Shown piece by piece: positions 9,276 through 31,799 of a DNA stretch of 34,243 bases (the stretch's first letter is position 1; each line of letters starts with the position of its first letter). The notes under the pieces are model-generated. The model saw nothing but the letters and a program-made list of their open reading frames with translations. It was not told the origin of the DNA and ran no database searches. This DNA comes from a virus (taxonomy: Duplodnaviria; Heunggongvirae; Uroviricota; Caudoviricetes). A program made the translations under genes and the position numbers. The DNA is taken from the IMG/VR virus record IMGVR_UViG_2859810971_000006, positions 1-34,243 of that record; one strand, 5' to 3'.

Positions 9276-10448
9276 TTACGCGCTGACCTGGCTGGAGAAA
9301 TTCACCAGGTACTGATCGGTGATGCGCTGACGCAGCATCAGGTTTTCAAGTGGCGGCACTGGCGTGTAGTCGTAATCGATGGTGAGTTTTCCGGCTTTCA
9401 GCGTGTCTTTATCGTTCACCGACTCCTCCAGCCAGCAATCACCACCAATCAGATAGCCCTGACTGACCAGGCTGCGCATTTTGGCGCGGATACCTTCGAT
9501 AATGTCGCGGGCCAGCGACGGGTTCAGCGGTTTGTCCACCGCCCACATGTGCGCTTCAGCCATCGTGTCCATCAGTACCTGCGCCGTGCGGGTGTAGTTC
9601 TCAAAGGCAAAAAGCGGATCATCACTCAGACAGCGGGAACCCCAGAAGCGAAAACCGTCTTTGCGGATAAGCGTGGTAACGTCGTTCTGGTTAAGCAGAC
9701 CTGCATCGGTTGCCGGGTCCTGCAGATCCCAGAACACATCAGCAGAAATTCCGGTGACACCGTTCACGCCCACGTTGGACAGGCTTTTGTGCCACCCGGT
9801 CTGCTCATCAATTTTGGCGCGCAGACCAAGCGCACGGGCGGTGGCATATGCCGTTGCTTCGGCGTTCAGCACCGTGTCCCAGCCAGTAAAGTCAGGCCAG
9901 ATCAGCATCCCTTCGCGCTGGCTGAAGTTTTCACGGTAAGTGATCGCCTCCTGTACCGTCTTGCAACCATACGCTGACAGGTAGGCAAACCCACGCAGGC
10001 TTTGCGCCACACTCAGCAACTCAGTAGCAACGGCTTTGTTATCGTGACCTGGCACGCCGAGAATGCGCGGTTTAACGCCGAGCAGTGTCTGGGCAGATAA
10101 CAGGGCTTTCATGCCTGTTTTTTTACCTTCAGCGGTCACTGCACCGATGATATTGGTCGTGGTTTCTTCTTCCGTTTCACCCTGCGGCACACGCACAACA
10201 ACGGTCACGGGTTTTGCCTGGTCAGCGATGGCATCCAGCGAACGGGCCAGCGTGCCGGACTCACCCGCTTTACCGCTGGCAGTCAGCACATCAGTGATCA
10301 GCACGGGTTTATTAAGAGGAAACATTTTTGCATCGGCATCATCGCCCGTGCAGACCATACCCACGATGGCGGTGCTCACCGTGGTAATGGATCGGGTGCC
10401 TTCGTTGACTTCAACAACGTGCACCCCGTGGTGGTAATCCTGAGCCAT
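9276..10448 (-). CDS. FI: Contractile tail sheath protein gpFI
   Basis: 390 aa; AGGAGG Shine-Dalgarno before the ATG; first gene of the FI-FII-E-T-U-D operon. Confidence 0.9.
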
Positions 10449-10524
10449 AGTGGCGAACCTCCTGATTGGATTAGGCTTCGCCCTATGTTGAAGTGATTGT
10501 GCCTGACAAACAGCTATGCGCAGT

Positions 10525-10542
10525 TGTACCGTTATTCATACA
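10525..10542 (-). promoter_or_regulatory. Candidate Ogr-type late-promoter element (TGT-N12-ACA dyad) upstream of FI
   Basis: tTGTaccgttattcatACAa, centred about 85 nt upstream of the FI ATG; shares the TTGTACCG start with the dyad upstream of P. Confidence 0.35.
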
Positions 10543-10642
10543 AAATGAGGGGAAGGCTTCAGAAGCTCACTCCACACTGGCGCTTATAGAGCTGTGTCTG
10601 ATCATCTGTTGATACAAGTACATAACGAATAAGCATGGTTAA

Positions 10643-10665
10643 GCTCCCAGACCAGAACTGGGAGC
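10643..10665 (-). terminator. Weak hairpin downstream of the acyltransferase gene
   Basis: gctcccag / ctgggagc inverted repeat about 15 nt after the stop at 10680; no strong U-tract. Confidence 0.2.
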
Positions 10666-10679
10666 ATGCCATTCACTTG

Positions 10680-11864
10680 TTATTTCTGTATTCTCACTGC
10701 CATTCTTTTTTGCACATCAAAAAATTTATTAATCACTCCATTGCGATTAATAAATGGATATTCTATACCTTTAAAAGTCATATAAGCGATAGTCACAACA
10801 ATTGGCGACAACATCAGAATTAAATATGCGTATGAATTATCACTCAAATTTCGCACATACGCCTTCCCGAGTAAAACATCTAAAGTAAAATATAGAACAA
10901 TCCCGTGCATTAGATAGATACTATATGATATCTCACCAAAGACTCTGGAGATTTTCAACTTTAACACACCAAATAGATCACATCCATTTACGATCAAAAT
11001 AAATATAGCACCGTTCAATAAAATTGGCAGGTAATCAAACGAGTGAGGGAAGTAAAAAAACGAAAAAACGAAACCTGAAATACACAAAAACGATGTCAAT
11101 TTCAAAGATGCAACTTTTAAGATTAATTTATTACCTCGTACTGCTGAAGCTAAAAAGCCACAGGCGAATGGCAGTAAAAAGATGTAATTTAAGTTGAGGT
11201 AATTAAACGCATATAAGCTAAATGCCGGGATAACTAGCATAAAGATATTTTTAGTTCTTCTCAAAGCAAATGCAATGAGCGGTAGAGAAAAATAGAATAA
11301 CCATTCATACACAAGCGTCCAATAAATACCAGCATATATATAACCAGTATCACTAAATCCATTTATATGTGAATTACCATAAGTTGCATATATCATCCAT
11401 GAAAGAATGGATTCAATTAGTTCACCTGCACTTACATTGAGTTTCCAGCCTGTTTTATATCCTATGATAAATAATGCAATTAAAAGCGAGAACATATACA
11501 GAGGATATATTCTAAAAATTCTTGATTTGTACAACGAGAACCAATTTATTTTTTTTGAATCAATTATTTTAGAAAAAAACAAAAACCCCGTTATCATAAA
11601 GAAAATCATAACGGGTAATTGCCCTGCATTCGCAAATACATGACTTGAAGGTAAAGACCATTCATTTGTTTTTATAAAGTGATGCCATATATAAGAGTGA
11701 TGCAGAAACACTAAGAAGGCCAAATACCCTCTCAATCCATCAATATTAACGTTCCTACCTTTACCTTCAATTGGTAGCGGACTTATTTTATCAAGAAAAT
11801 ACAATATGGCGATAGCTGCAAATATAGCAGCTACTATTAACATAGGGCTATTATAAATTAACAT
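10680..11864 (-). CDS. Acyltransferase-3 family integral membrane protein (O-antigen/LPS acetyltransferase-like), prophage cargo in the Z/fun position
   Basis: 394 aa, about ten hydrophobic segments; N-terminal DGLRGYLAFLVFLHHS and MIFFMITGFLFFSK motifs typical of the family; visibly AT-rich coding sequence, unlike the flanking tail genes. Confidence 0.8.
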   Translation of the reverse strand: MLIYNSPMLIVAAIFAAIAILYFLDKISPLPIEGKGRNVNIDGLRGYLAFLVFLHHSYIWHHFIKTNEWSLPSSHVFANAGQLPVMIFFMITGFLFFSKIIDSKKINWFSLYKSRIFRIYPLYMFSLLIALFIIGYKTGWKLNVSAGELIESILSWMIYATYGNSHINGFSDTGYIYAGIYWTLVYEWLFYFSLPLIAFALRRTKNIFMLVIPAFSLYAFNYLNLNYIFLLPFACGFLASAVRGNKLILKVASLKLTSFLCISGFVFSFFYFPHSFDYLPILLNGAIFILIVNGCDLFGVLKLKISRVFGEISYSIYLMHGIVLYFTLDVLLGKAYVRNLSDNSYAYLILMLSPIVVTIAYMTFKGIEYPFINRNGVINKFFDVQKRMAVRIQK

Positions 11865-12086
11865 GTAATTAACCTTAGGATTTTTCAGAAATTTTCACAG
11901 CAATATTTTTATATTGTACGCTCACAAATATATCTTTTACAATATAAATGGTCATTACCATCATCAAAACTGTCCCAGGATTACAGTTCTCCTGAACTCA
12001 ACCAGGGCGAGAGTATCTCTATCATGTTGATTTGCAACGTGCCAGTAGCCTGTTTTATCGTGTTTCCAAAATGAGCTGGTTAAAAA

Positions 12087-12114
12087 CTGGCAGGCATGAA
12101 AATCTACCTGCCAG
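12087..12114 (-). terminator. Bidirectional rho-independent terminator between tfa and the acyltransferase moron
   Basis: ctggcagg (12087-12094) pairs with cctgccag (12107-12114); A5 on one side and T5 on the other, so T-runs follow the stem on both strands; starts right at the tfa stop codon. Confidence 0.55.
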
Positions 12115-12118
12115 CTTT

Positions 12119-12523
12119 TTACAATGCAGGTTTATCAGGCCATTCAATGTCCGGAGCAGTAGATGTATCGACAGCTTTCACGTCTTTGACATACTGCATC
12201 CACATAATCAACTTTGCTTTATTTTCATCACTAATGGTTCCCAGAAATAAATCAGTCCGCCAGTCTGCTGTTACGGCATTAGCATCTGCAAGCCGTGATT
12301 GTCTTTCCTGTTCAGCATTGTTAACCAGCTCTTCATATGTTTTTACGGGGGCTGGCGGAGCAATAAATTCACCATCAGCGAAAAGCCAGCCAATGCGCAC
12401 TCCATCAGCAAGTGGGAACACTTGAAAACCATCCGTAGCCCATTCACTCTCCCCATCCCATACCGCAATGTTGACAACAACACCATCTCTCACCATTGCA
12501 TAATTCATTATGCGTACTCCCAT
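12119..12523 (-). CDS. Tail fibre assembly protein (gpG / Tfa-like)
   Basis: 134 aa directly after the tail fibre gene; C-terminal ...IEWPDKPAL typical of Tfa chaperones; GGAG Shine-Dalgarno. Confidence 0.75.
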   Translation of the reverse strand: MGVRIMNYAMVRDGVVVNIAVWDGESEWATDGFQVFPLADGVRIGWLFADGEFIAPPAPVKTYEELVNNAEQERQSRLADANAVTADWRTDLFLGTISDENKAKLIMWMQYVKDVKAVDTSTAPDIEWPDKPAL

Positions 12524-14212
12524 ACAATTACAATGCCTGCCATCCCTGCACCTCCAGCACGTTGCTGTGTCGCGCCGCCGTAAACACAGGCACCGCCACC
12601 ACCGCCACCTGGTCCATTAGCATTAATTCCTTCTCCGACAATGGCCTGTGAACCCGCGCCCTCACCCAGAACAGAACTGCCACCAGGTCCTCCCATTGCC
12701 AGCAATCCTGAATAGCGAACACCTGGCATGGTATAGCCACTGCCACTGCCAAAAATATTCGCCCCGTGAATCCAAGTGTGTATGCACCAGCAGGCCCTAC
12801 AACGGCTATATTATTACCCTCTGTCATTACAGCTCCACCCAACCCCCCTTTTGCGGTAACAACGTCACCAAATGCTGAACTTCCCCCTGTCGCCCCCGGC
12901 ATTGCACTGGCTCCCGTTCCTCCGTACCCAACGGTAACCGTTGTTACTACCGGATGGTCTATGCGGGCTTTAACGTATTCTCCCGACATTCCCCCTCCGC
13001 CGCAGGCAGCATTGCCCCTGTACCGACCTGGCATCCGCCGCCAGCGCCACCACCGCCAACCACTTCAACAATCGCAAACTTTATACCTGCAGTTGGCGTA
13101 TATATCCCGGAGGCTTTGAACACCTGACATTTTACCAGTCGGCCTGTTCCGTCGCCAAGCCCAAGGTATGTGAGAAGACCAGCTACATCCTTTCCACTCA
13201 AATTAGTCAGCGTATTATCCAGCGGTTGTTTTCCCGCCAGTGCATTAAGCATTGTCGTGGCAAAGTTCGGGTCATTCCCTAGCGCCGCCGCCAGTTCGTT
13301 CAGCGTATCCAGTGCCGCAGGTGCAGAACCCACCATTGCCGCAATTGCCGATTTCACAAAAGCCGTGGTGGCAATCTGTGTATTGTTGACCGACTGCTCC
13401 GCCGTGGGGGCTGTTGGCGTTCCAGTGAGTGCCGGACTCGACAGCGGCGCTTTCAGTGCCAGCGCATTGTTAATGGTGGTACTGAATTTCGGGTCATTGT
13501 TTATGGCTGCGGCAATTTCTTTCAGCGTGTCCAGCGTGGCTGGCGCACCATTAATAAGGGCCGTCAGTGCCGCCTGTACAAACGCAGTGGTCGCAACCTG
13601 CGTGGTATTATTCCCCGCCGCTGGCGTTGGCGCTTTGGGGATTCCGGTAAATGTCGGGCTGGCTTTTGGCGCGTACTGTGAATGCGGGTCCGGTGCGGCA
13701 AGATGTTTTGCCATCTGATCATCCGCGTACACCTTCAGCTCCAGTGCCTTGTCATCCACATACTTGCGGGTTGCCAGCACTACAGCAGGGTCGATTTTCA
13801 GGGTGATATTGTCCGTGCTGCTGGTAATCAGCACCATGCGCACGGTCTGAGTGCGCCCGCTACCTTCAGCCAGTTGCGGCTTATAGCTTTCCGGGCAGTT
13901 GCCCACGGCAATCAATGCCCCGGACTCATCAAACAAGCCCACTTCACGTATCCACCAACCGCCCTCGTTTTCAGGGATCACCTGTTCGGCAATAATCTGG
14001 CTGCTGTTCTGCGGGTCGATATAGAGCATATTCAGCGCAGCCCGGCGTTTCTCATTTACCAGTGCAGTCTGCTTTGAGTCTGGCGTTGGCAATACTCCGC
14101 CGCCATCGCCCACCGCCATATGGGTAATTTTTAGCGGCACACCGAGCGCGGCGGCGCTGGCAAGTTTCGACGCGCCAATATCCGTCAGCAGGGTATAAAA
14201 TTTTGTGCTCAT
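12508..14212 (-). pseudogene. H: Tail fibre gene H, reading frame broken at two points (three frame segments)
   Basis: P2 H-like N-terminus (MSTKFYTLLTDIGASKLASAAALGVPLKITHMAVGDGGG...) runs 14212-12959. Plausible Gly-rich fibre sequence continues in a second frame (12790-13034) and a third (12508-12729, ending ...MAGIVIVWEYA). Confidence 0.55.
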
Positions 14213-29277: not shown

Positions 29278-29781
29278 TTACTGATAGTGTTTTATGTTCA
29301 GATAATGCCCGATGACCTTGTCATGCAGCTCCACCGATTTTGAGAACGACAGTGACTTCCGTCCCAGCCTTGCCAGATGTTGTCTCAGATTCAGATTATG
29401 TCGCTCAATGCGCTGAGTGTAACGCTTGCTGATAACGTGCAGCTTTCCCTTCAGGCGTGATTCATACAGCGGCCAGCCATCCGTCATCCATACCACGACC
29501 TCAAAGGCCGACAGCAGGCTCAGAAGACGCTCCAGTGTGGCCAGAGTGCGTTCACCGAAGACGTGCGCCACAACCGTCCTCCGTATCCTGTCATACGCGT
29601 AAAACAGCCAGCGCTGACGTGATTTAGCACCGACGTAGCCCCAATGTTCGTCCATTTCAGCGCAGACAATCACATCACTGCCCGGTTGTATGCGCGAGGT
29701 TACCGACTGCGGCCTGAGTTTTTTAAGTGACGTAAAACCGTGTTGAGGCCAACGCCCATAATGCGTGCACTGGCACGACAT
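29278..29781 (-). CDS. insB: IS1 InsB (expressed as the InsAB' transposase by -1 frameshift at A6C)
   Basis: 167 aa; A6C frameshift motif in the insA/insB overlap (plus strand gtttttt at 29718-29724). Confidence 0.95.
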
Positions 29782-29975
29782 CCGACGCCATTCATGGCCA
29801 TATCAATGATTTTCTGGTGCGTACCGGGCTGAGAGGCGGTGTAAGTGAACTGTAGTTGCCATGTTTTACGGCAATGAGAGCAGAGATAGCGCTGATGTCC
29901 GGCAGTGCTTTTGCCGTTACGCACCACGCCTTCAGTAGCGGAGCAGGAAGGACATCTGATGGAAATGGAAGCCAC
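29700..29975 (-). CDS. insA: IS1 InsA
   Basis: 91 aa, Cys-rich N-terminus (CPSCSAT...CSHCRK). Confidence 0.95.
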
Positions 29976-30127
29976 GCAAGCACCTTAAAATCACCATCAT
30001 ACACTAAATCAGTAAGTTGGCAGCATTACCCGCAATGTGATTAAGTCCATTCAGGCGTTCACCGGGGCTTAATGGAACAGTCGCCGCAGCGCCATTAATT
30101 GCCATAATTCATATCCCCAAAACGCAA

Positions 30128-30367: not shown

Positions 30368-30549
30368 TTCCCCGTGGTCAATTCAGACAGCAATTCATCT
30401 TGTGAACGGCACGGATGCCAGCGTTTACCATCCTCACCCATGATCCAGCCGTGACCGTAGTGCATTGCCGGGCTTTGTTTTACCAGCAGCGATGCAAATG
30501 ATGGTTCTTTCGTCAGCATAAGCACCTCACAGCAAACCGAATGAAGCAC
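30223..30549 (-). CDS. Hypothetical early-region protein (3' part overlaps the next ORF)
   Basis: 108-aa ORF immediately after the cII-like gene; overlaps 30223-30367 with the next ORF in another frame. Confidence 0.3.
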   Translation of the reverse strand: MLHSVCCEVLMLTKEPSFASLLVKQSPAMHYGHGWIMGEDGKRWHPCRSQDELLSELTTGKWRKSKCMQRKVKWFISFVTEGRVIQYLKMICSVVIRRCRAMAVTFSR

Positions 30550-31031
30550 CGAGGCCAGTCACGGTATCAACTGCACTCGCCATCGCAGGATTAGCCTGTA
30601 AACGGGCCTGCAATGAAACAGCCGCCAGCGCCATCAGTCGTGTTACAGAGTTAATGCTGCTGATAGCATCACGACGACCTGCACTGGTTTTTACATCGCC
30701 AGATACCGCACCTGCAGCAACACGCCCGATCTCTGCGGTTGCACTCATGACGTAATGTGGCAGTTTCTCTTTTGCTACCTCATTAATCGGTACACATGGC
30801 AGACAATGAATCTGTGCCAGAAAACCATCTACCAACGTTGAATCTTCAGTCAGATCGGTAAGCAGCCAGATTTCTGGTGCGGTTAATAAATGAGGTTGAG
30901 CTGGGTTCAGCTTGTTCCGCAGAATCTGCACATTTATGCCCGCACGTTCTGCCAGTTGCACCAGATTGTGGCGCAGTGCGAATGCACGACAGGCTTCATC
31001 AAAATGTGGATGTTTGGAAACTTGGTAATCA
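30527..31031 (-). pseudogene. CII-like helix-turn-helix regulator, split from its start codon by IS1 copy 2
   Basis: Removing IS1 and one copy of the duplication restores ATG TTT GAT TAC CAA GTT... ([12 protein letters not shown]..., about 169 aa) with a GGAG Shine-Dalgarno at 31800-31825; the insertion is after codon 4. Helix-turn-helix-like [19 protein letters not shown]. Confidence 0.5.
31024..31031. repeat. Target-site duplication (left) of IS1 copy 2
   Basis: ggtaatca immediately outside the left IS1 end. Confidence 0.7.
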
Positions 31032-31046
31032 GGTAATGACTCCAAC

Positions 31047-31550
31047 TTACTGATAGTGTTTTATGTTCAGATAATGCCCGATGACCTTGTCATGCAGCTC
31101 CACCGATTTTGAGAACGACAGTGACTTCCGTCCCAGCCTTGCCAGATGTTGTCTCAGATTCAGATTATGTCGCTCAATGCGCTGAGTGTAACGCTTGCTG
31201 ATAACGTGCAGCTTTCCCTTCAGGCGTGATTCATACAGCGGCCAGCCATCCGTCATCCATACCACGACCTCAAAGGCCGACAGCAGGCTCAGAAGACGCT
31301 CCAGTGTGGCCAGAGTGCGTTCACCGAAGACGTGCGCCACAACCGTCCTCCGTATCCTGTCATACGCGTAAAACAGCCAGCGCTGACGTGATTTAGCACC
31401 GACGTAGCCCCAATGTTCGTCCATTTCAGCGCAGACAATCACATCACTGCCCGGTTGTATGCGCGAGGTTACCGACTGCGGCCTGAGTTTTTTAAGTGAC
31501 GTAAAACCGTGTTGAGGCCAACGCCCATAATGCGTGCACTGGCGCGACAT
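31047..31550 (-). CDS. insB: IS1 InsB
   Basis: 167 aa; one residue different from copy 1. Confidence 0.95.
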
Positions 31551-31744
31551 CCGACGCCATTCATGGCCATATCAATGATTTTCTGGTGCGTACCGGGCTG
31601 AGAGGCGGTGTAAGTGAACTGTAGTTGCCATGTTTTACGGCAATGAGAGCAGAGATAGCGCTGATGTCCGGCAGTGCTTTTGCCGTTACGCACCACGCCT
31701 TCAGTAGCGGAGCAGGAAGGACATCTGATGGAAATGGAAGCCAC
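31469..31744 (-). CDS. insA: IS1 InsA
   Basis: Identical 91-aa product to copy 1. Confidence 0.95.
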
Positions 31745-31799
31745 GCAAGCACCTTAAAATCACCATCATACACTAAATCAGTAAGTTGGCAGCATTACC

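What the first reader, a model, noticed from the sequence alone, without database searches (positions are those of the whole stretch)
10680..11864. AT-rich acyltransferase-3 membrane protein as prophage cargo in the Z/fun slot
The slot between the tail-fibre genes and FI, where P2 carries its Z/fun exclusion gene, holds a 394-aa polytopic membrane protein with acyltransferase-3 motifs. Its coding sequence is visibly more AT-rich than the tail genes, and it is insulated by a bidirectional terminator upstream with its own AT-rich leader (11865-12086). Members of this family acetylate O-antigen or other surface glycans, and temperate phages use them for serotype conversion and to block superinfection. 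This is the best candidate in the window for a receptor-modifying, lysogenic-conversion or defence function.
Basis: partly seen in the sequence, partly recalled or inferred. Interest (0 to 1): 0.75.

Follow-up and report, generated by a model that had tools for sequence, protein, structure and literature searches.

The report
Prophage-borne surface-sugar acetyltransferase cargo gene
A decaying P2-type prophage in an E. coli/Shigella chromosome carries, between its tail-fibre and tail-sheath genes, an intact foreign gene for a membrane enzyme of the kind that temperate phages use to acetylate the host's surface O-antigen; it is a well-known kind of phage cargo, not a new mechanism.

Summary
Window 10680-11864 (-) is an intact 394-aa ORF. 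It matches Pfam Acyl_transf_3 (E 3e-26) and PHROG 3333 'O-acetyltransferase' (E 3e-53). Its GC is 31.6% against about 56% for the tail genes. It lies between the tail-fibre chaperone G and sheath gene FI of a P2-like prophage next to ybjL. A strong bidirectional terminator hairpin lies upstream, and the gene has its own conserved sigma-70-like promoter.

The closest characterised relative is OacB of Shigella phage Sf101 (40% identity over 373 aa). All seven residues shown by mutagenesis to be essential in OacB are conserved. Hydropathy gives 11 membrane helices, and the AlphaFold model is confident (pLDDT 95).

The exact protein is on record in 331 index blocks. All 24 contigs read show the same prophage slot. 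Both complete E. coli genomes that carry it have O7 O-antigen clusters. At least seven distinct AT3 lineages occupy this slot in other P2-like phages.

Most likely it is an O-antigen (perhaps O7) O-acetyltransferase expressed from the lysogen. Substrate and phenotype are untested. It is a new member of a known kind, and interest is modest.

The parts
10680..11864 (-). AT3-only (OacB-like) membrane O-acyltransferase gene, 394 aa, intact
   Evidence: ORF. Pfam PF01757 E 3e-26. PHROG 3333 E 3e-53. 40% identity to Sf101 OacB. No nucleotide differences from L001 across the CDS. dN/dS 0.13 against the 75%-identical homologue in L004.
11913..11942 (-). Predicted sigma-70 promoter of the cargo gene (TTGTAA-N18-TACAAT)
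   Evidence: Consensus scan and coordinates. The -35 (TTGTGA) and -10 (TACAAT) hexamers are kept in the diverged L004 cassette, while the sequence between -10 and the ATG carries an 11-nt indel. Function is inferred.
11865..12056 (-). AT-rich upstream region that travels with the gene (cassette leader). The Shine-Dalgarno AAGG lies at 11876-11873.
   Evidence: Homology with the L004 cassette runs from 10702 to 12056 at 75.8% identity. Alignment. It contains no GATC site (read from the sequence).
12082..12119 (.). Bidirectional intrinsic-terminator-like hairpin ending the V-W-J-I-H-G late operon (core stem 12087-12114, flanked by A5 and T5)
   Evidence: Fold -24.5 kcal/mol, z -6.6 on the minus strand; -16.3 kcal/mol, z -2.9 on the plus strand. 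Coordinates.
10643..10665 (-). 8-bp G+C hairpin 15 nt after the stop codon, with no T-run (weak terminator or cassette end)
   Evidence: Fold -20.7 kcal/mol, z -3.0. Coordinates.
10559..10636 (-). Decayed 5' remnant of a serine DNA invertase gene (MLIRYVLVSTDDQ...), a relic of the tail-fibre inversion system that relatives carry in this slot
   Evidence: Translation, and 34/41 nt identity to the 5' end of the L002 invertase gene. Intact invertase plus an invertible fibre segment are present in L002 and L003.
10525..10542 (-). TGT-N12-ACA dyad upstream of FI, of the Ogr-dependent P2 late-promoter type. It marks the start of the conserved backbone.
   Evidence: Pattern match. Backbone homology to L002 and L003 resumes at 10551. 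The assignment as an Ogr box rests on established knowledge of P2 late promoters.
10552..13160 (.). Variable module of the hotspot: tail-fibre tip, chaperone G, AT3 cassette and invertase relic
   Evidence: No homology to invertase-bearing relatives between 10552 and 13160. The tip plus G (12119-13160) occurs only in the same 2 of 5426 E. coli genomes as the AT3.
12119..12523 (-). Tail-fibre assembly chaperone (gpG type)
   Evidence: Pfam Caudo_TAP E 4e-25.
12508..14212 (-). Tail-fibre gene H, split into three frames in this window
   Evidence: Pfam Phage_tail_fib on 12959-14212 and Gly_rich_2 on 12528-13034. 1-nt deletions at 12762 and 13015 relative to the intact 568-aa gene of L001.
9276..10448 (-). 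Tail sheath gene FI, the downstream border of the slot
   Evidence: Pfam Phage_sheath_1, Phage_sheath_1C and Gp18_domIII_N.

Best explanation
The gene is a horizontally acquired 'moron' in the G-FI (Z/fun) hotspot of a P2-like prophage. It encodes an AT3-only, OacB-type integral membrane O-acyltransferase.

Proposed mechanism. The late tail operon stops at the hairpin at 12082-12119. The cargo gene is transcribed in the lysogen from its own sigma-70 promoter (11942-11913). The 11-helix protein has a periplasmic N-terminus and a cytoplasmic C-terminus. It takes an acyl group, most likely acetyl from cytoplasmic acetyl-CoA, through its transmembrane pore, using the conserved Arg45/His56 and SRxxR (Arg115/Arg118) sites. 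It then transfers the group to a sugar of a surface polysaccharide on the periplasmic side. The most likely target is the host O-antigen, which is O7 in both complete E. coli carriers. This changes the O-epitope. By analogy with Sf6 Oac and BTP1 OafB, it would hinder phages, and possibly antibodies, that recognise the unmodified O-antigen.

Shown here:
- family membership;
- conservation of all experimentally essential OacB residues;
- topology and fold confidence;
- cargo position, terminator and conserved promoter motif;
- purifying selection;
- an exclusively prophage context;
- the O7 background of the complete carriers.

Inferred:
- expression in the lysogen;
- acetyl as the acyl group;
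- the O-antigen as acceptor;
- any exclusion or serotype phenotype.
For: - Family: Pfam AT3 and PHROG O-acetyltransferase hits.
- Homologue: 40% identity over 373 aa to Sf101 OacB, E 3e-94 pairwise. It is the only strong match among 50,697 phage records.
- Essential residues: OacB R47, H58, W71, F98, R116, R119 and S146 (PMC8952252) align to R45, H56, W69, F96, R115, R118 and S145 here.
- Motifs: DGLRGYLAxxVxxHH, FFMITGFLFF and SRxFR are present, and R45, R115 and R118 are invariant (H56 nearly so) across 120 homologues.
- Topology: 11 hydrophobic segments, with K/R clustered in the predicted cytoplasmic loops and at the C-terminus. This matches OacB's predicted 11 TM, N-out/C-in topology.
- Structure: AlphaFold2 pLDDT 95.1, pTM 0.92.
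- Selection: dN/dS 0.13 against the 75% homologue.
- Insulation: terminator z -6.6. Promoter hexamers are conserved in the diverged L004 cassette.
- Context: all 24 contigs read show the same prophage slot.
- Relatives next to phage receptor-binding genes: the 75% homologue follows a Caudo_TAP gene. The 40% E. coli homologue lies between a tailspike and holin genes. OacB lies next to the Sf101 tail gene.
- Recurrence: at least 7 AT3 lineages (42% identity or less to each other) occupy the H/G-FI slot of P2-like phages in IMG/VR, in both orientations, all low-GC.
- Polysaccharide link: the 49% homologue sits beside PglD-like sugar-modification genes. AT3 GC (31.6%) matches the O7 rfb genes (28-34%).
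- O7 background: both complete E. coli carriers have O7 wzx/wzy, while O7 wzy occurs in 97 of 5426 genomes. NCBI names a cluster member 'E. coli O7:H10'.
- Intact in a decayed prophage: the gene is undamaged and identical to the copy in L001, whose annotated phage genes are all intact.
Against: - There is no experimental data for this protein.
- 40% identity does not fix acceptor specificity. OacB itself is reported on two different sugars.
- NCBIfam has no equivalog. PADLOC has no defence model. No solved structure matches by sequence or Foldseek.
- The promoter is a 9/12 consensus match in AT-rich DNA, where such matches are common (12 found against 8.3 expected).
- A 31% GC gene in E. coli is a typical H-NS target and could be poorly expressed (general knowledge, not tested).
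- The O7 link rests on two complete genomes plus one database name. The O-type of the window's own host (CP026810-type, close to S. boydii 600080) was not determined.
- Cluster members also occur in E. ruysiae and a 'S. sonnei' assembly.
- P2-type fibres classically bind LPS core, so self-exclusion is not implied.
Confidence: 0.75

Rival explanations
1. The enzyme is active but acylates a surface or periplasmic glycan other than the O-antigen. Candidates are enterobacterial common antigen (as WecH does), colanic acid, LPS core, osmoregulated periplasmic glucans (as OpgC does, with succinyl) or peptidoglycan.
For: - AT3 proteins act on many acceptors (review PMC9558356).
- Homologues at 33-40% identity are spread over Burkholderiales, Pseudomonas, Flavobacterium and other groups that have unrelated polysaccharides.
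- Acceptor specificity cannot be read from sequence.
- The gene also occurs in a Shigella boydii strain (CP049606) whose O-type was not determined.
Against: - There is no NCBIfam hit at all (E 0.01 or better), including to any family model that names a non-O-antigen substrate.
- The nearest characterised protein is an O-antigen enzyme with all essential residues shared.
- The enzymes known for peptidoglycan, and several for O-antigen, are AT3-SGNH fusions. This protein has no SGNH domain.
- Phage-borne relatives sit next to receptor-binding genes.
- Both complete carriers share one O-type.
Confidence: 0.15
2. The gene is a silent or selectively neutral passenger. It was picked up by illegitimate recombination in a recombination-prone hotspot, is not expressed (for example, H-NS silenced), and contributes nothing to host or phage.
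For: - The slot is a known hypervariable hotspot with frequent swapping.
- An invertase relic shows messy rearrangement.
- The promoter is only a consensus match.
- The gene is rare: 2 of 5426 complete E. coli genomes.
Against: - dN/dS is 0.13 against a 75% homologue that occupies the same slot in another prophage.
- The ORF is intact and unchanged in a prophage that has otherwise collected a portal nonsense codon, frameshifts and two IS1 insertions.
- Promoter hexamers are conserved across cassettes.
- Seven independent AT3 lineages in the same slot argue for selection of this function.
Confidence: 0.07
3. It is an intracellular or abortive-infection type anti-phage defence gene like other P2 hotspot cargo (old, tin, Z/fun), acting independently of glycan acylation.
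For: - P2 hotspots are rich in defence systems. Z/fun of P2 itself is known as an exclusion function that occupies this position (and established knowledge).
Against: - There is no PADLOC match.
- The protein is a complete single-domain AT3 enzyme with its catalytic residues intact and no extra domain or partner gene in the slot.
- Known AT3 phage proteins act by surface modification.
Confidence: 0.03

Closest known systems
OacB (O-acetyltransferase B) of Shigella flexneri phage Sf101, and its near-identical relative OacC
   Same: - AT3-only architecture of about 390 aa, with an extra N-terminal helix (11 TM predicted).
- 40% identity over 373 aa.
- The three S. flexneri Oac motifs and all seven mutagenesis-critical residues are conserved.
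- Low-GC gene (33.7% against 31.6%) carried by a temperate phage next to a tail gene.
   Different: - Only 40% identical.
- Carried by a P22-like podovirus next to int/attP, not by a P2-like myovirus between G and FI.
- OacB's acceptor (Rha III 3/4-O, GlcNAc 6-O of the S. flexneri backbone) is not present as such in O7 hosts.
- The activity of the window protein is untested.
Oac of Shigella phage Sf6 (the archetypal serotype-converting O-acetyltransferase)
   Same: - AT3-only membrane acetyltransferase.
- Own promoter and terminator in a prophage (annotated).
- R73/R76 correspond to R115/R118 here.
- The logic of masking the O-antigen against superinfection.
   Different: - Distant: 28% identity over 181 aa, E 5e-8 pairwise.
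- 333 aa, and it lacks the N-terminal extra helix (alignment).
OafA / OafB (GtrC family II) of Salmonella, including the BTP1 prophage
   Same: An AT3 domain with the same conserved Arg/His in the first core helix. O-antigen O-acetylation protects against phage.
   Different: These are AT3-SGNH fusions of about 600-640 aa. The window protein has no SGNH domain. No GATC sites occur in the leader, so the Dam/OxyR phase-variation signature reported upstream of oafB is not apparent (sequence).
Z/fun locus of phage P2 and the P2-like 'Z/fun' diversity hotspot
   Same: Same genomic position (after the tail-fibre genes, before FI). It is a lysogenic-conversion-type cargo with its own expression signals. 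The hotspot is known to mix tail-fibre swaps, invertases and other cargo. All of these are seen here.
   Different: No sequence relation to Z/fun was sought or found. The proposed mechanism is surface modification rather than the T5 exclusion described for P2.
Other AT3 genes in the same slot of P2-like phages (IMG/VR loci L054/L065, L062, L081, L092, L095, L097/L098; Citrobacter-type L004)
   Same: Same slot between H/G and FI. Sizes of 368-417 aa, an extra N-terminal helix, and low GC of 30-43% against 53-58% backbones.
   Different: Only 29-42% identical to each other and to the window protein, except L004 at 76%. Three lineages are in the opposite orientation to the tail genes. None is characterised.

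Membership tests
Acyltransferase-3 (AT3, Pfam PF01757) membrane acyltransferases | Significant full-length match to the family profile | tested here: met
   E 3.2e-26, 92.6 bits (cut-off 31), covering profile positions 2-323 of 326.
Acyltransferase-3 (AT3, Pfam PF01757) membrane acyltransferases | Polytopic helical membrane protein (10-TM core) | tested here: met
Acyltransferase-3 (AT3, Pfam PF01757) membrane acyltransferases | Conserved Arg and His in the first core helix, and the RxxR loop motif | tested here: met
   R45, H56, R115 and R118 are present. R45, R115 and R118 are invariant and H56 nearly invariant across 120 homologues.
OacB-type phage O-antigen O-acetyltransferases (AT3-only) | Full-length homology to OacB | tested here: met
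   40% identity over 373 of 394 aa, E 3e-94 pairwise. tblastn E 2e-70 in the phage collection.
OacB-type phage O-antigen O-acetyltransferases (AT3-only) | The seven residues essential in OacB (R47, H58, W71, F98, R116, R119, S146) | tested here: met
   They align to R45, H56, W69, F96, R115, R118 and S145.
OacB-type phage O-antigen O-acetyltransferases (AT3-only) | 11 TM segments with a periplasmic N-terminus and cytoplasmic C-terminus | tested here: inconclusive
   The segment count and K/R distribution agree, but no dedicated topology predictor or experiment was available.
OacB-type phage O-antigen O-acetyltransferases (AT3-only) | Gene-dependent O-acetylation of the O-antigen, or serotype conversion | not testable with these tools
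   Needs NMR or MS of LPS, or serology. There is only circumstantial support from the O7 background of both complete carriers.
AT3-SGNH fused acetyltransferases (OafA/OafB/OatA type) | C-terminal periplasmic SGNH domain | tested here: not met
   Pfam finds only PF01757. The protein ends 34 residues after the AT3 match.
P2-like Z/fun hotspot cargo (moron) | Located between the tail-fibre/chaperone genes and FI of a P2-like prophage | tested here: met
   Caudo_TAP upstream and sheath downstream. A full P2-type gene set is present in the window and in L001.
P2-like Z/fun hotspot cargo (moron) | Present or absent among otherwise near-identical phages, with foreign composition | tested here: met
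   About 734 genomes hold 80% or more of the backbone, but only 2 hold the cargo. Relatives carry an invertase system in the slot instead. GC is 31.6% against 56%.
P2-like Z/fun hotspot cargo (moron) | Own transcription signals, independent of the late operons | tested here: inconclusive
   The terminator is strongly supported. The promoter motif is conserved between cassettes, and other AT3 lineages sit in antisense orientation. No expression data exist.
Known anti-phage defence systems (PADLOC-DB) | Match to a defence-system protein model | tested here: not met
   No family at E of 0.01 or better.

The most novel reading that the evidence does not exclude
The 2.6-kb variable module (10552-13160) is a co-inherited 'bind and mask' unit. 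It combines a tail-fibre tip found in no other phage record with an AT3 enzyme. The enzyme would create a so far undescribed O-acetylated variant of the E. coli O7 (and related Shigella boydii) O-antigen, and so close the receptor behind the phage.

More generally, capture of AT3 acetyltransferases in the Z/fun slot (at least 7 independent lineages, both orientations) would be a recurrent exclusion strategy of P2-like phages that has gone unrecognised. It would sit alongside the intracellular defence systems already described for P2 hotspots.
Probability: 0.3. Interest if true: 0.5.

Novelty: new member of a known kind. Interest (0 to 1): 0.3.

Why it matters
If active, the gene would define an O-acetylated subtype of the O7 antigen in E. 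coli and Shigella boydii. That matters for serotyping, for glycoconjugate vaccine design, and for the host range of O-antigen-dependent therapeutic phages.

The comparative result shows that AT3 genes of many lineages recur in the Z/fun slot next to swapped tail-fibre tips. The P2 hotspots are currently mined mainly for intracellular defence systems. This slot also collects surface-modification genes.

The case also illustrates cargo outliving its phage. The enzyme gene is intact in a prophage whose portal, fibre and early genes are broken.

None of this changes current understanding of how AT3 enzymes or lysogenic conversion work.

Tried and rejected
- NCBIfam scan: no hit. The protein therefore cannot be assigned to any curated equivalog such as OpgC.
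- PADLOC scan: no hit.
- PDB sequence search and Foldseek against PDB: no significant match, so no solved AT3 structure was found to compare with.
- BFVD: one 637-aa unnamed hit only.
- Rfam on 10300-12300: only a sub-threshold chance hit (antisense_SR1, 22.8 bits against 45). The leader holds no known riboswitch or leader RNA. It contains no ops/JUMPstart GGCGGTAG and no GATC (read).
- SPC-P1 of S. Paratyphi C was checked as a possible P2-like precedent with an AT3 gene. It is a short-tailed P22-like phage, so it was rejected as a precedent for this slot.
- My recollection that S. boydii type 12 shares the O7 antigen was not supported. The literature held here links S. boydii 22 (prov. E1621-54) to O7. 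No link between that serotype and this locus was tested.
- A single-protein scan of the GTDB species representatives found nothing. The profile scan found only relatives at 40% identity or less, with oacB the best. The lineage has no close chromosomal source among species representatives.
- L097-type AT3: no match in complete E. coli genomes.
- Plus-strand ORFs inside the gene (57-78 aa) have no support and were treated as AT-rich noise.
Full report
**1. The observation**

- It matches Pfam Acyl_transf_3 over almost the whole profile (E 3.2e-26, 92.6 bits against a cut-off of 31).
- It matches PHROG 3333 'O-acetyltransferase' (E 3.2e-53).
- Its GC is 31.6% and GC3 29.4%, against about 56% GC (GC3 58-64%) for the sheath, fibre and tape-measure genes.
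- Upstream on the same strand is a Caudo_TAP tail-fibre chaperone (12119-12523). Downstream is the tail sheath (9276-10448).

The 'bidirectional terminator' is real.
- The hairpin has its core at 12087-12114 and is flanked by A5 and T5.
- It folds at -24.5 kcal/mol (z = -6.6, 0 of 200 shuffles as good) on the minus strand.
- It folds at -16.3 kcal/mol (z = -2.9) on the plus strand.
- The simple scanner missed it because of its loop-size limit.

**2. Where the window comes from**

The window is a P2-like prophage inserted next to ybjL in an Escherichia/Shigella chromosome. The gene order is ogr, D, U, T, E, FII, FI, cargo, G, H, I, J, W, V and so on.
- It is 100.000% identical over 21,185 nt to CP026810.1 (L012).
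- It is 99.9% identical to Shigella boydii 600080 (CP049606).
- It is 99.7-99.8% identical to two complete E. coli genomes.

The backbone is common. About 734 of 5426 complete E. coli genomes hold at least 80% of the first 25 kb. The cargo is rare in that set, present in 2 of 5426 genomes.

Close relatives of the phage carry a serine invertase and an invertible tail-fibre segment in the same interval (L002, L003).

**3. Anatomy of the slot**

Homology to those relatives stops at 13161 (inside H) and resumes at 10551. The variable module is therefore 10552-13160. It holds four things:
- the receptor-binding tip of H;
- the chaperone G;
- the AT-rich cassette;
- a 78-nt relic of the 5' end of an invertase gene (10636-10559, MLIRYVLVSTDDQ...; 34/41 nt identical to the L002 invertase start).

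Immediately inside the conserved backbone lies TGT-N12-ACA (10542-10525). This is the dyad known from Ogr-dependent P2 late promoters (established knowledge). FI therefore keeps its own late promoter downstream of the cargo.

The cassette proper is delimited by its alignment to a 75%-identical homologue in a Citrobacter-type P2-like prophage fragment (L004): 10702-12056 at 75.8% nucleotide identity.
- That alignment includes about 190 nt upstream of the ATG.
- The TTGTAA-N18-TACAAT promoter-like site (11942-11913) is kept there as TTGTGA...TACAAT.
- The stretch between the -10 and the ATG has an 11-nt indel.
- A Shine-Dalgarno AAGG sits 9 nt before the ATG.
- After the stop codon there is an 8-bp G+C hairpin without a T-run (10665-10643, -20.7 kcal/mol, z -3.0).
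- Rfam finds nothing credible in the leader. It has no GATC and no ops element (sequence).

**4. What the protein is**

The only strong match among 50,697 phage records is OacB of Shigella phage Sf101. Pairwise identity is 40% over 373 residues, E 3e-94. Sf6 Oac is much more distant: 28% over 181 aa.

OacB has been dissected by alanine mutagenesis. R47, H58, W71, F98, R116, R119 and S146 are essential (PMC8952252). In the alignment these correspond to R45, H56, W69, F96, R115, R118 and S145 of the window protein, so all seven are conserved. The three S. flexneri Oac motifs (DGxRGxLAxxVxxHH, FFxITG[YF]LFxxK, SRxxR) are present.

Across 120 homologues, R45, R115, R118, W182 and E187 are invariant, and H55/H56 and W69 nearly so.

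Topology and structure:
- Hydropathy gives 11 segments, including an extra N-terminal helix (residues 6-24).
- Lys/Arg are concentrated in the loops predicted to be cytoplasmic and in the C-terminal tail.
- This matches the 11-TM, N-out/C-in model proposed for OacB.
- AlphaFold2 with this alignment gives pLDDT 95.1 and pTM 0.92, all helical.
- There is no SGNH domain. The protein is therefore of the AT3-only type (Oac/OacB), not the OafA/OafB/OatA type.
- NCBIfam and PADLOC have no model for it.

**5. Is it a live gene?**

Nei-Gojobori dN/dS against the L004 homologue is 0.13 (dN 0.147, dS 1.13). That indicates purifying selection.

In this window the surrounding prophage is decaying:
- H is split into three frames by 1-nt deletions at 12762 and 13015.
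- gpO has a 1-nt deletion at 21703.
- The portal gene has TAA at 24852-24854 where L001 has CAA.
- Two IS1 copies sit at 29263-30030 and 31032-31799. The first cuts a Dam methylase gene.

Some of the 1-nt deletions could be assembly errors. The IS1 insertions and the nonsense substitution are unlikely to be.

Across 25.8 kb the window differs from L001 at 72 positions. The 1185-nt AT3 gene carries none of them. About 3.3 would be expected, giving a Poisson P(0) of about 0.04. This is a weak hint only.

**6. Context of relatives**

The exact protein is listed in 331 index blocks. All 24 contigs read carry it in the same prophage at the same slot.

Near relatives also sit beside phage receptor-binding genes:
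- The 75% homologue follows a Caudo_TAP gene.
- A 40% E. coli/Citrobacter homologue, 52% identical to OacB, lies between a tailspike and holins.
- OacB adjoins the Sf101 tail gene.
- A 49% homologue lies beside PglD-like and MaoC-like sugar-modification genes. This is consistent with an origin in polysaccharide clusters. The AT3 GC (31.6%) equals that of the O7 rfb genes (28-34%).

A profile scan of IMG/VR returned 80 loci. Testing them with the window's P2 tail proteins found nine (L019, the window's own lineage, plus L054, L062, L065, L081, L092, L095, L097 and L098) with an AT3 gene between H/G and FI of a P2-like phage.
- With the window/L004 pair these make at least seven lineages, 42% identical or less to one another.
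- Sizes are 368-417 aa, and all are low-GC.
- Three lineages are in the opposite orientation to the tail genes, which requires their own promoters.
- The L054 type occurs in five complete E. coli genomes. The L097 type occurs in none.

The Z/fun locus is already described as a mixed-purpose diversity hotspot with fibre swaps and invertases. The held texts of those two papers do not mention acyltransferases or acetyltransferases.

**7. Substrate clue**

Both complete E. coli carriers have O7 O-antigen clusters (O7-family wzx and wzy, vioAB, rfbBDAC, manBC).
- Their alleles differ: wzy is 100% against 99.3% identical, and most rfb, his and gnd proteins shown have different accessions. The two rfb-his regions are therefore not identical, though the strains may still be related.
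- O7 wzy occurs in 97 of 5426 genomes. Two independent carriers would both be O7 with a probability of about 3e-4.
- NCBI also names a cluster member 'E. coli O7:H10'.

The H tip plus G (12119-13160) is found in exactly the same two genomes. Beyond its first 60 residues the tip has no match in the phage collection. The receptor-binding tip and the enzyme are thus co-inherited.

This fits the Sf6/BTP1 logic, in which a phage masks the glycan that it or its competitors use. It is only circumstantial. The O-type of the window's own host was not determined. Members also occur in E. ruysiae and in an assembly labelled S. sonnei.

**8. Verdict**

- The most likely function is a lysogen-expressed, OacB-like O-acetyltransferase that modifies a surface polysaccharide. 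The probable target is the O7 O-antigen, with serotype and phage-receptor consequences.
- Confidence in the enzyme class and cargo status is high. Confidence in the acceptor is moderate. Confidence in an exclusion phenotype is low to moderate.
- The rivals are: another glycan as acceptor, a silent passenger, or a non-enzymatic defence role. They are less well supported.
- This is a new member of a well-known kind. RefSeq already labels it 'acyltransferase family protein'.
- The two modestly interesting extras are the recurrence of unrelated AT3 genes in this P2 slot and the linkage to a unique fibre tip in O7 hosts.

Noticed in passing
window 12508-14212 (-): Tail-fibre gene H is split into three reading frames by single-base deletions at 12762 and 13015, relative to the intact 568-aa gene in L001 and most other carriers. 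CP026810.1 has the same split. These are either real pseudogenisation or homopolymer assembly errors.
   Followed up: partly
window 24852-24854 (+), portal gene Q: A premature TAA stop where L001 has CAA. The portal ORF is cut into 145-aa and 183-aa pieces. The prophage is probably unable to make particles.
   Followed up: partly
window 29263-30030 and 31032-31799: Two IS1 copies, 99.9% identical over 768 bp, sit in the early region. The first leaves only the C-terminal part of a D12 Dam methylase gene (28843-29196). The second lies beside the CII-like gene (30527-31045). This is typical of Shigella-type genome decay.
   Followed up: partly
window 1085 and 21703: More single-base deletions relative to L001. 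One lies in host gene ybjM (not called in CP026810.1). One lies near the start of scaffold gene O (273 against 277 aa).
   Followed up: no
window 12119-13160: The receptor-binding tip of H (with a Gly_rich_2 domain) and its chaperone occur only in the same 2 of 5426 E. coli genomes as the AT3 gene. Beyond its first 60 residues the tip has no match in 50,697 phage records. Its receptor is unknown.
   Followed up: partly
window 25460-26432 (old/tin hotspot between portal and gene A): This second P2 hotspot is nearly empty here (a DinI-like gene at 25846-26151 and small ORFs). The alignment jumps about 960 bp in L001 between portal and DinI, where L001 has 203-aa and 71-aa hypothetical genes. Identity drops to 94% beyond that point.
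   Followed up: no
L017 15976-16746 (GCA_023500345.1): One carrier has a reverse-transcriptase (RVT_1) gene between ogr and ybjL, and no called genes between the AT3 gene and gpU (FI, FII, E and tape-measure absent). This may be a retron or group II intron at the prophage end.
   Followed up: no
L004 838-2040 and 3260-3591: In the Citrobacter-type relative, about 1 kb without any ORF over 65 aa separates G from the AT3 cassette. An inverted fragment of a second G-like gene follows the AT3 gene. This suggests the cassette landed inside a former invertible fibre segment.
   Followed up: partly
window 11875-11964 (-): A 29-aa upstream ORF (MMVMTIYIVKDIF...) ends 11 nt before the AT3 start codon. 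It is called as a gene in CP026810.1 only. It overlaps the predicted promoter and is not conserved in L004, so it is probably spurious.
   Followed up: partly
L054 4899-6005; NZ_CP074760.1 and four other E. coli genomes: A different AT3 gene, 36% identical to the window's, sits antisense in the same slot of a phage whose tail proteins are 98-100% identical to the window's. It occurs in five complete E. coli genomes including strain DEC9B. Whether it tracks one O-serogroup was not checked.
   Followed up: partly
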